Assembly: GCF_013122565.1 (NCBI RefSeq)
Contig: NZ_CP053258.1
Reading direction: 5' to 3' (one strand)
Length of the DNA stretch: 64,000 nt
From: Escherichia coli
GTDB taxonomy: Bacteria > Pseudomonadota > Gammaproteobacteria > Enterobacterales > Enterobacteriaceae
The notes below the pieces were generated by a model, which was not told where the DNA came from, made no database searches, and was given only the letters and a program-made list of their open reading frames with translations. The position numbers and the translations under genes are program-made. Positions 17,300 through 17,655 of this stretch are shown here, piece after piece. The stretch's first letter is position 1. The number at the start of each line of letters is the position of its first letter.

Positions 17300-17655
17300 T
17301 CATCAGCCCACGGCACGATAATGGCTCATCAGGATGCCATTTTGAGTCAGTATATCTGTCAGAGTGCGCGCACCTGCGGAACCCCGACTCTGGTTCCAGG
17401 CCCGGCGTATTTCGCTATACAACCTGACTCGCGCCGGATCAATGGTATCGCGCCGCTTCTGCCAGTACCGGTAACTGCTGCGATGTACGTCCAGAGCAGC
17501 ACAAAGGCTGACAACCGTGTAGCTGCCGCTCAGTCTGGTAACTATCGTAAACCGTTCAGCGAGTCGGACATCAAGAGCGAGGTAGCCTTTTTTAATCTCG
17601 TATTGGCACTGTGTGCCAGTATTGAAATCCACGAAATAACTTACTTACCAAGTTT
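17300..17655 (-). mobile_element. IS3-family transposase remnant (3' end of orfA joined to 5' start of orfB, truncated)
   Basis: The 109-aa ORF (17303-17632) carries ...[22 protein letters not shown]...[18 protein letters not shown]..., which aligns in pattern with the N-terminus of IS3-group OrfB proteins. There is no DDE catalytic region and I found no recognisable terminal inverted repeats. Confidence 0.6.

What the first reader, a model, noticed from the sequence alone, without database searches (positions are those of the whole stretch)
17300..17655. IS3-family transposase remnant abutting the 3' end of the transporter gene
Only the orfA tail and orfB head survive, and the frame stops at 17303 with no catalytic domain. 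Such scars often mark junctions of independently acquired segments; here it separates the adhesin module from the sugar cassette.
Basis: partly seen in the sequence, partly recalled or inferred. Interest (0 to 1): 0.3.

Follow-up and report, generated by a model that had tools for sequence, protein, structure and literature searches.

The report
Decayed IS3-family insertion sequence scar
This is the dead, chopped-up remains of a common jumping gene (an ISEc31-like IS3-family insertion sequence) sitting at the seam between a plasmid-type adhesin operon and a sugar-utilisation cassette in an E. coli chromosomal island; it is ordinary and already annotated as such in public genomes.

Summary
The stretch is a non-functional remnant of an IS3-family insertion sequence related to ISEc31 (87% nt identity; 93.6% to the nearest E. 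coli relative). Its true extent is 17128-17604, not 17300-17655. It keeps the right terminal inverted repeat (17128-17153) and the last 24 transposase codons. It also keeps the last 20 orfA codons, the A-AAA-AAG frameshift heptamer (17587-17593) and OrfB residues 87-215. It has lost about 464 bp holding the whole DDE catalytic triad, and 321 bp at the 5' end (left repeat and most of orfA). A 1-nt frameshift and a nonsense codon are also present. Bases 17605-17655 are not IS sequence.

The scar does sit on a module seam. Homology to plasmid aah-aidA modules (95%) stops exactly at the IS tip (17127|17128). The LacI-GH5-MFS cassette on the other side is a conserved unit in Enterobacter, Raoultella and Klebsiella. 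A second, 30-bp ghost of the same IS lies at 12100-12129, on the other edge of the adhesin module. The module is therefore bracketed by two same-orientation copies, which suggests IS-mediated acquisition.

RefSeq already annotates the remnant as an incomplete IS3 family transposase. Interest is low.

The parts
17128..17604 (-). Full extent of the IS3-family (ISEc31-related) remnant, 477 bp of an originally ~1258-bp element
   Evidence: blastn against the intact element L001 1513-2770. Window 17128-17209 corresponds to IS 3' end positions 1-82 (89%). Window 17215-17604 corresponds to IS positions 547-937 (87%, E=7e-135). The same two blocks are 91% and 93.6% identical to L003.
17128..17153 (.). 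Right terminal inverted repeat (IRR), TGAAGCGGTCTAGTAATATTGGCCAC. Its outer tip at 17128 abuts the adhesin module.
   Evidence: It differs at 3 positions from the IRR of the intact element (TGTAGTGGTCAAGTAATATTGGCCAC). The pattern search finds only 2 matches in the window, and none in any of 100 shuffles. Plasmid homology of the adhesin module ends at 17127.
17139..17210 (-). Last 24 codons of OrfB (aa 369-392: [24 protein letters not shown]). The original stop codon is lost.
   Evidence: tblastn of the intact OrfAB, 79% identity. The mechanical ORF 17103..17201 reads on past ANIT.
17210..17214 (.). Junction of the ~464-bp internal deletion (IS positions 83-546; OrfAB aa ~216-368, including D230, D290 and E326)
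   Evidence: Alignment gap between the two homology blocks. rve domain at aa 222-319, rve_3/rve_2 reaching aa 379. DDE positions. The two flanking blocks are in the same reading frame.
17215..17596 (-). OrfB head, aa 87-215 (HTH_21-type region). It is broken by a 1-nt deletion at 17311/17312 and a TAT->TAG nonsense codon at 17295-17297.
   Evidence: tblastn: aa 87-181 map to 17596-17312 in frame -1, and aa 184-215 map to 17306-17211 in frame -3 with an internal stop. The alignment gap is seen.
17587..17593 (-). Programmed -1 frameshift heptamer A-AAA-AAG, retained
   Evidence: Read directly from the sequence. It is the same motif as at position 333 of the intact element, whose CDS is annotated 'programmed frameshift'.
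17545..17604 (-). orfA tail, last 20 codons ([20 protein letters not shown]). The 5' truncation point is 17604|17605, so 321 bp with the IRL and orfA aa 1-83 are missing.
   Evidence: tblastn of OrfA aa 84-103, 17/20 identical. Intact copies continue as ...CGTATT|TTGTTCCTCC, whereas the window reads ...CGTATT|GGCACTGTG. All IS hits but one end at 17604.
17303..17632 (-). Its first 9 codons are non-IS spacer.
   Evidence: pN/pS against the nearest relative is 2.0 (15.5 nonsynonymous, 2.5 synonymous changes), compared with 0.11 between intact ISEc31 copies.
17605..17655 (.). 51-bp non-IS spacer between the truncated IS and the MFS stop codon. It begins with the hairpin GGCAC-TGT-GTGCC (17605-17617).
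   Evidence: It matches no IS copy. It is present only in the 6 E. coli genomes that carry the cassette. No terminator-like site is found on the minus strand.
17656..19071 (-). MFS_2 (GPH-type) sugar transporter, the first gene of the sugar cassette (with GH5 at 19122-20207 and LacI at 20393-21400)
   Evidence: Pfam MFS_2, E=1.8e-60. Orthologues of 64-93% aa identity occur in Enterobacter, Raoultella, Klebsiella and others, within a conserved three-gene block. The C-terminus is intact: L007 aligns over aa 1-471.
12130..17127 (-). Plasmid-type adhesin module: AIDA-like autotransporter (12148-15735), TibC/Aah-type heptosyltransferase (15750-16910) and 217 bp upstream region
   Evidence: About 95% identical to p48B2a and pLD39-1 over 12128-17127. 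Pfam TibC_1st and Glyco_transf_9.
12100..12129 (.). 30-bp ghost of a second copy of the same IS (IRR positions 1-26 plus the IRL tip TACA), in the same orientation as the remnant, on the other edge of the adhesin module
   Evidence: 24/26 match to the IRR; it is one of only two hits in the window, with none in 100 shuffles. It matches the predicted IRR+IRL-tip fusion at 28/30 positions. Its outer tip cuts a membrane-protein gene fragment at 12099|12100.

Best explanation
The feature is an inert, heavily decayed copy of an ISEc31-related IS3-family insertion sequence at 17128-17604.

Shown:
- The element has lost its left inverted repeat and the orfA helix-turn-helix region. With that missing 321 bp, presumably its own promoter went too (not located here).
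- It has also lost the complete DDE catalytic core.
- It carries a frameshift and a nonsense codon.
- It therefore cannot transpose, cannot make transposase, and shows no sign of selective constraint.
- Its outer right tip coincides to the base with the end of homology between the chromosomal aah-aidA-like adhesin module and plasmid-borne AIDA modules.
- A 30-bp ghost of the same IS, in the same orientation, marks the other edge of that module.
- The truncated 5' side abuts, 51 bp past the transporter stop codon, a LacI-GH5-MFS cassette whose relatives are chromosomal in Enterobacter, Raoultella and Klebsiella.

Inferred:
- The adhesin module entered this hipA-yneL island bracketed by two direct copies of the IS. 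This could have been as a composite-transposon-like unit, or by recombination with or cointegration through an IS copy.
- Afterwards the left copy collapsed to its fused tips by deletion between short GCCAC repeats.
- The right copy lost its core by an internal deletion.
- A further deletion or illegitimate recombination removed its IRL side and whatever lay beyond, bringing the sugar cassette alongside.

Today it is a scar that records that history, not a working part.
For: Identity and anatomy:
- IS3-family HMM match and 87-94% nt identity.
- Ends of the intact reference element, and its 3-bp AAG target duplication.
- DDE triad and rve domain fall in the deleted interval.
- The 5' truncation at 17604 is shared against all IS copies but one.

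Seam:
- Plasmid homology ends at 17127.
- More divergent AIDA-I plasmids read through the equivalent site into non-IS DNA.
- The sugar cassette is a conserved unit elsewhere.
- tcu-module homology to plasmids starts at 21406, right after the LacI stop, so the island is a mosaic.
- The island is absent from K-12; it spans window 11791-26700.

Second IS copy:
- Two and only two IRR matches in 64 kb, both on the + strand, at 12100 and 17128, with none in any of 100 shuffles.
- The ghost is 28/30 identical to the predicted fused-tip product.
- The ghost's outer tip truncates an unrelated gene fragment.
- Plasmid p48B2a also carries a 67-bp ISEc31-like IRL fragment, in the same orientation, 18 bp from the same edge of the module.

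Decay:
- pN/pS is 2.0 against the nearest relative, versus 0.11 among intact copies.
- Erosion continues: all 6 complete genomes with the cassette carry a further deletion of 14051-17339 that leaves only 265 bp of the remnant.
- PGAP annotates that piece as 'IS3 family transposase, incomplete'.
Against: - The vehicle role of the IS is inferred, not shown. The right copy's IRL and outer flank are gone, so no target-site duplication around the bracketed unit can be checked.
- In the two closest plasmids a different IS3-family element, not the ISEc31-like one, occupies the 17127|17128-equivalent junction. No plasmid with the IS-module-IS arrangement was found.
- The ghost is only 30 bp, and reading its last 4 bases as the IRL tip is post hoc.
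- The donor of the sugar cassette is not among the species representatives (best 84% nt), so the nature of the 17604|17605 junction (deletion or insertion) is unresolved.
- The pN/pS value rests on only 18 substitutions.
Confidence: 0.9

Rival explanations
1. Bystander IS. The ISEc31-like copies inserted independently into an already assembled island, or into the plasmid ancestor, and played no part in moving the adhesin module. Later deletions starting inside or next to them happened to create the present junctions.
For: The region upstream of aah is an IS hot spot. Plasmids p48B2a and pLD39-1 carry a different IS3-family element within 1 bp of the same junction, and pLD39-1 has a third one between aah and its upstream region. 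The IRL side that could show a unit-wide target duplication is missing.
Against: It requires two independent insertions of the same rare IS variant, in the same orientation, exactly at both limits of plasmid homology. The ghost's outer flank is unrelated DNA, a truncated membrane-protein gene, and not a continuation of the module.
Confidence: 0.3
2. Domesticated fragment. The 109-aa ORF (HTH-like OrfB head) is expressed and acts as a DNA-binding regulator, for example as a trans-inhibitor of related ISEc31 transposition or as a regulator of the neighbouring operons.
For: The ORF is open for 109 codons and retains an HTH_21-like segment. It lies on the same strand as, and downstream of, the MFS gene, with no predicted minus-strand terminator. 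It is 99.6-100% conserved in three other assemblies.
Against: The Pfam hits are below the gathering thresholds. The start codon lies in fortuitous spacer sequence. pN/pS is 2.0 against the nearest relative. The conservation reflects recent common ancestry, since the whole 13-17 kb is 99.6-100% identical. The six complete genomes with the cassette have deleted everything below 17340, and with it the C-terminal 12 codons and the stop of this ORF.
Confidence: 0.03
3. Chance ORF or a mis-assigned family: not an IS3 remnant at all.
For: None beyond the sub-threshold Pfam scores for the short fragment.
Against: E=3e-136 nucleotide match to annotated IS3-family elements in more than 2300 E. coli genomes. 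NF033516 E=1.8e-15. The slippery heptamer and the terminal repeat are retained.
Confidence: 0.01

Closest known systems
ISEc31 (IS3 family), as named by NCBI PGAP, e.g. WP_106906343.1 in E. coli 2012C-4221; intact 1258-bp relative in strain JS01 (WP_085968792.1)
   Same: Same architecture where sequence survives: 26-bp terminal repeat starting with TG, orfA/orfB overlap with the A-AAA-AAG -1 frameshift site, the HTH_21 OrfB head and the C-terminal tail. Identity is 87-87.5% nt and 79% aa over the retained parts.
   Different: The window copy lacks the IRL, orfA aa 1-83 and aa ~216-368 (the whole DDE core). It carries a frameshift and a nonsense codon, and has lost its stop codon. At 87% identity it is a related element rather than ISEc31 itself.
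Unnamed ISEc31-like element interrupted by ISEc21 (IS110 family) in E. coli MB06234, CEA224S, CUVET21-PYO5 and others
   Same: Nearest relative found: 93.6% nt over 17215-17604 and 91% over the IRR block. It is also a pseudogene.
   Different: Those copies keep both ends and the DDE region but are split by ISEc21 at IS position ~318-322. The window copy has no ISEc21. Its internal deletion (IS positions 83-546) spans that insertion point, so descent from an ISEc21-interrupted copy is possible but untested.
RefSeq pseudogene KKZ11_RS11270 ('IS3 family transposase; incomplete; missing N-terminus and C-terminus') in E. coli CP52E, and its equivalents in UTME-7, wlxctx60, VE-T9, LHM10-1 and ET201
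   Same: The same locus and the same 17604|17605 junction at 99.8-99.9% identity, next to the same MFS-GH5-LacI-tcuR genes.
   Different: Those genomes carry an extra deletion of window 14051-17339, so only 265 bp of the remnant survive and it is fused to a fragment of the autotransporter gene. The window, and the assemblies behind L057-L059, keep the longer ancestral form together with the intact adhesin operon.
Composite (IS-bracketed) transposons and IS-flanked virulence modules on E. coli plasmids
   Same: A cargo operon is bracketed by two copies of one IS in direct orientation, with the module limits exactly at the IS tips.
   Different: Both copies are degenerate, the outer IRL is missing, and no flanking target duplication and no second occurrence of the unit were found. 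Membership cannot be demonstrated.

Membership tests
IS3 family insertion sequence | Transposase sequence similarity (NCBIfam NF033516; Pfam HTH_Tnp_1 / HTH_21 / rve) | tested here: met
   The remnant ORF matches NF033516 at E=1.8e-15 over model positions 86-170. This is below the full-length cut-off, as expected for a fragment. The intact 87%-identical relative scores 360 bits against a cut-off of 160. tblastn gives 79% aa identity over aa 87-215 and 369-392.
IS3 family insertion sequence | Two overlapping ORFs (orfA, orfB) joined by programmed -1 frameshifting at an A-AAA-AAG-type heptamer | tested here: met
   The heptamer is at 17587-17593 (minus strand). The orfA frame ends 20 codons after the truncation point, and the OrfB frame continues in -1. 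Relatives are annotated 'programmed frameshift'.
IS3 family insertion sequence | DDE catalytic triad in an rve (integrase core) domain | tested here: not met
   Absent from the remnant. D230, D290 and E326 of the intact relative lie in the ~464-bp deleted interval. This shows inactivation rather than non-membership, because the flanks on both sides of the deletion are homologous to the IS.
IS3 family insertion sequence | Terminal inverted repeats of ~20-40 bp ending 5'-TG...CA-3' | tested here: inconclusive
   The IRR is present at 17128-17153 and starts with TG. The IRL has been removed by the 5' truncation at 17604.
IS3 family insertion sequence | 3-4-bp target-site duplication | not testable with these tools
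   It needs both ends. The intact relative in L001 shows an AAG/AAG duplication, but the window copy has only one end.
Composite transposon (IS-cargo-IS) | Two copies of the same IS at both limits of the cargo | tested here: met
   IRR-type ends at 12100 and 17128, both on the + strand, are the only two matches in 64 kb, with none in 100 shuffles. Plasmid homology of the cargo spans 12128-17127.
Composite transposon (IS-cargo-IS) | Target-site duplication flanking the whole unit, or the same unit found at another location | tested here: inconclusive
   The outer IRL flank is deleted. The related plasmids have an ISEc31-like IRL fragment at one side but a different IS at the other. No second occurrence was found in 5426 complete E. 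coli genomes.

The most novel reading that the evidence does not exclude
The GH5, MFS, IS-remnant ORF, heptosyltransferase and AIDA-like adhesin genes all lie on the minus strand, and no terminator-like site is predicted on that strand between the MFS stop codon and aah. The truncated IS may therefore have fused two operons transcriptionally. Read-through from the LacI-regulated sugar promoter would then couple adhesin expression to sugar availability. Alternatively, the 109-aa HTH fragment could be expressed from that read-through as a trans-acting regulator.
Probability: 0.07. Interest if true: 0.4.

Novelty: already known. Interest (0 to 1): 0.12.

Why it matters
On its own it matters little. 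Decayed IS3-family copies at the seams of genomic islands are routine, and this one is already flagged as an incomplete IS3 family transposase in RefSeq genomes.

Its modest value is as a historical marker. Together with the 30-bp ghost at 12100 it shows that a plasmid-type glycosylated-adhesin operon (aah-aidA-like) is bracketed by two copies of one IS in the chromosome. It also shows that the hipA-yneL island is a mosaic of at least three separately distributed modules: adhesin, sugar cassette and tricarballylate operon. The window carries the least-eroded version so far seen of a locus that is further deleted in all six complete genomes that have it.

Tried and rejected
- Rfam scan of 16500-18000 at E<=1: no RNA family.
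- Promoter/terminator scan of 16800-17800: one promoter-like site on the + strand (17016-17044, 11/12) and three + strand terminator-like sites. The promoter count (1 against 1.8 expected) is not above the shuffled expectation; the terminator-like sites (3 against 0.8 +/- 0.9) are all on the + strand. No functional claim is made.
- Search for a closer parent on plasmids: nothing better than 87.5% at full coverage.
- Attempt to define the native downstream flank of the sugar cassette from other genera. Nucleotide homology fades 70-100 nt before the MFS stop codon (best 84%), so the 17604|17605 junction could not be resolved as a deletion or an insertion.
- Search for the rest of the membrane-protein gene cut by the ghost: it is not in the window.
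- Inverted-repeat search for the ends of the different IS3-family element at the plasmid junction: no convincing pair, so its extent is undefined.
- IS26-type end. The spacer starts GGCACTGT, like the IS26 terminal repeat as I recall it, but only 8 nt agree, so this was rejected as chance.
- Literature. ISEc31 appears only in mobile-element lists of genome surveys. No paper was found describing IS flanks of aah-aidA.
- Domestication of the 109-aa ORF: rejected on pN/pS = 2.0 and on its partial deletion in sister genomes.

Full report
**Context.** The window is an E. coli chromosome segment running lsr - yneO-type autotransporter - hipBA - island - ydeQRS - ydeP - gadB. It is collinear with strain CP52E (97.6-99.8%) and with K-12, apart from a strain-specific island at window 11791-26700 that replaces 207 bp of K-12 between hipA and yneL.

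From left to right the island holds:
- a 5' fragment of a membrane-protein gene, 11890-12099;
- an AIDA-like autotransporter (12148-15735, minus strand) and a TibC/Aah-type heptosyltransferase (15750-16910, minus strand);
- the feature under review;
- an MFS_2 transporter (17656-19071), a GH5 glycosidase (19122-20207) and a LacI regulator (20393-21400);
- tcuRABC.

**Checking the observation.** The 109-aa minus-strand ORF at 17303-17632 exists.
- It matches NCBIfam NF033516 'IS3 family transposase' at E=1.8e-15 over model positions 86-170 of 369. It gives sub-threshold Pfam hits to HTH_21 and HTH_Tnp_1.
- At the DNA level the region matches IS3-family elements in about 2300 of 5426 complete E. 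coli genomes.
- Against an intact 1258-bp copy (L001 1513-2770, strain JS01, CDS annotated 'IS3 family transposase, programmed frameshift'), 17215-17604 aligns at 87% (E=3e-136) and 17128-17209 at 89%.
- PGAP names near-identical intact copies 'IS3-like element ISEc31 family transposase'.
- The nearest relatives (93.6% and 91% over the two blocks) are chromosomal copies in a handful of E. coli strains. All of them are interrupted by an ISEc21/IS110-family element.
- No closer copy exists on plasmids.

**Anatomy.** The intact element has 26-bp terminal repeats (TGTAGTGGTCAAGTAATATTGGCCAC / ...GTGCCACTACA), a 103-codon orfA and an A-AAA-AAG slippery site. Its OrfAB is 392 aa, with rve at aa 222-319 and DDE residues D230, D290 and E326. 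Mapped onto it, the window retains the following, reading along the transposase strand:
- the last 20 orfA codons, 17604-17545;
- the slippery heptamer, 17593-17587;
- OrfB aa 87-181, 17596-17312;
- after a ~464-bp in-frame internal deletion (aa ~216-368), aa 369-392 at 17210-17139, with the natural stop codon lost;
- the right terminal repeat at 17153-17128.

The 5' 321 bp (IRL, leader, orfA aa 1-83) are missing. Intact copies continue ...CGTATT|TTGTTCC, whereas the window reads ...CGTATT|GGCACTGTGTGCC. All but one of the IS matches in 1353 records stop at 17604; the exception is an 84.7%-identity hit that runs 12 bases further. So 17605-17655 is a non-IS spacer, and the first nine codons of the mechanical ORF are fortuitous.

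**Is it functional?** Nothing suggests so.
- It lacks one end, its DDE triad and most of orfA.
- Rfam finds nothing.
- The promoter-like count is below the shuffled expectation; the three terminator-like sites, slightly above it, are all on the + strand.
- Substitutions against the nearest relative are 15.5 nonsynonymous to 2.5 synonymous (pN/pS 2.0). Between intact ISEc31 copies the ratio is 0.11.
- All six complete genomes with this locus have gone on to delete window 14051-17339. That leaves 265 bp of the remnant fused to a fragment of the autotransporter gene. PGAP annotates this piece as 'IS3 family transposase; incomplete; missing N-terminus and C-terminus'.
- Three further assemblies carry the window's longer form at 99.6-100% identity over 13-17 kb. 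This is recent common descent, not constraint.

**Does it mark a seam between independently acquired segments?** Yes.
- The adhesin module 12128-17127 is ~95% identical to aah-aidA regions of E. coli plasmids p48B2a and pLD39-1. The homology ends to the base at ...CTACCTTTAAC|TGAAGCGG, which is the outer tip of the IS repeat.
- More divergent AIDA-I plasmids read through the equivalent position into non-IS DNA.
- On the other side, LacI-GH5-MFS is a conserved three-gene block in more than 40 species representatives of Enterobacter, Raoultella, Lelliottia, Klebsiella, Citrobacter, Rahnella and others, at 63-84% nt identity. The homology is confined to ~17730-21400.
- In E. coli the cassette occurs in only 6 of 5426 complete genomes, always with this junction.
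- Beyond LacI, homology to tcu operons on E. coli plasmids begins at 21406, immediately after the LacI stop codon. The island is therefore a mosaic of at least three modules.
- G+C rises from 37-47% in the adhesin module to 47-55% in the cassette and ~55% in tcu.

**A second copy of the same IS.**
- Searching the window with the terminal repeat gives exactly two hits, both on the + strand: 17128 (3 mismatches) and 12100 (2 mismatches). None occurred in any of 100 shuffles.
- The 12100 copy is only 30 bp long: TGTAGTGGCCAAGTAATATTGGACACTACA. It matches IRR positions 1-26 followed by the last four bases of the IRL at 28/30 positions. This is the product expected from a deletion between the GCCAC motifs in the two repeats.
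- Its inner tip abuts the start of plasmid homology, inside the aidA terminator hairpin. Its outer tip cuts a membrane-protein gene fragment at 12099|12100. The rest of that gene is not in the window.
- Plasmid p48B2a also carries a 67-bp ISEc31-like IRL fragment in the same orientation, 18 bp from the same module edge.

The adhesin operon is thus bracketed by two same-orientation, degenerate copies of one IS. I infer, but cannot show, that the module arrived as an IS-bracketed unit, by composite transposition or by IS-mediated recombination/cointegration. On this reading later deletions collapsed the left copy, gutted the right copy, and removed its IRL side, bringing the sugar cassette alongside.

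The main rival is independent bystander insertions in an IS hot spot. The plasmids have a different IS3-family element within 1 bp of the 17127|17128 junction, and pLD39-1 has a third one upstream of aah. This rival cannot be excluded, because the outer IRL flank needed for a target-duplication test is gone.

**Comparison with what is known, and verdict.** This is a pseudogenised IS3-family element related to ISEc31. It meets the family's sequence, frameshift-site and terminal-repeat criteria where sequence survives. It fails the DDE criterion only because that region is deleted. It is an already annotated, ordinary kind of scar. The IS bracket around a chromosomal aah-aidA-like operon is a tidy piece of natural history, not a new mechanism.

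The most novel reading not excluded is that the truncated IS created a terminator-less bridge. Read-through from the LacI-controlled sugar operon could then reach the adhesin operon or the 109-aa HTH fragment. I rate this at about 7%. Overall interest is 0.12.

Noticed in passing
window 12100-12129: A 30-bp ghost of the same ISEc31-like element (IRR 1-26 plus the IRL tip TACA) lies at the far edge of the adhesin module, in the same orientation as the remnant. It is one of only two matches to the repeat in the window.
   Followed up: yes
window 11890-12099: A 5' fragment of a membrane-protein gene (annotated 'chromate transporter' in ~55 other E. coli genomes, 92% identity) is cut exactly at the ghost's outer tip. 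The remainder of the gene is absent from the window.
   Followed up: partly
L004 9340-10556; L005 8734-9962 and 10197-11414 (equivalent to window 16911-17128): AIDA plasmids p48B2a and pLD39-1 carry a different IS3-family element within 1 bp of the 17127|17128 junction, in the opposite orientation. pLD39-1 has a further IS3-family insertion between the aah start codon and its upstream region. The ~220 bp upstream of aah therefore looks like an IS hot spot.
   Followed up: partly
window 12006-12771 and 14051-17339 (versus L002/L006, strain CP52E): In strain CP52E two extra deletions fuse autotransporter beta-barrel fragments to the IS remnant and destroy the adhesin operon; all six complete E. 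coli genomes with this island share the 14051-17339 one. The junctions show only 1-5 bp of microhomology. The window keeps the ancestral intact form.
   Followed up: yes
L003 898-2271, L049, L050 (IS positions ~318-322): Every copy of the nearest-relative IS (93.6%) found in complete E. coli genomes is interrupted by an ISEc21/IS110-family element at the same internal position. That position lies inside the interval deleted in the window's remnant.
   Followed up: partly
window 21405|21406 and 21406-21533: There is a sharp module boundary right after the LacI stop codon. tcuR homology to E. coli plasmids (up to 98%) starts at 21406. A 128-bp piece (91%) of that stretch is present in ~100-kb F-type plasmids, F' plasmids and some K-12-derived laboratory chromosomes, unannotated.
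   Followed up: partly
window 11784-11797; L057 13120-13135: The island's left boundary against K-12 lies at a shared 7-bp ATTTAAC (minus-strand reading). In assembly GCA_052983875.1 the same island edge is joined at that point to a different context (unknown ORFs and a BCCT transporter) instead of hipA. This suggests a rearrangement or a second location.
   Followed up: partly
window 17016-17044 (+ strand): A near-consensus sigma-70-like site (TTGAGA-17-TATAAT, 11/12) in the aah upstream region points towards the IS remnant, antisense to it. The number of such sites is not above the shuffled expectation.
   Followed up: no
window 11781-11877 vs L005 3620-3716: A 97-bp stretch just inside the island's left edge is 85.7% identical to sequence ~285 bp to the left of the AIDA module in plasmid pLD39-1. 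This hints that more plasmid-derived debris flanks the module.
   Followed up: no
window 27150-30426: A further ~3.3 kb is absent from K-12 between yneL and ydeT. In CP52E this part of the locus carries an IS3 insertion and fimbrial gene fragments.
   Followed up: no
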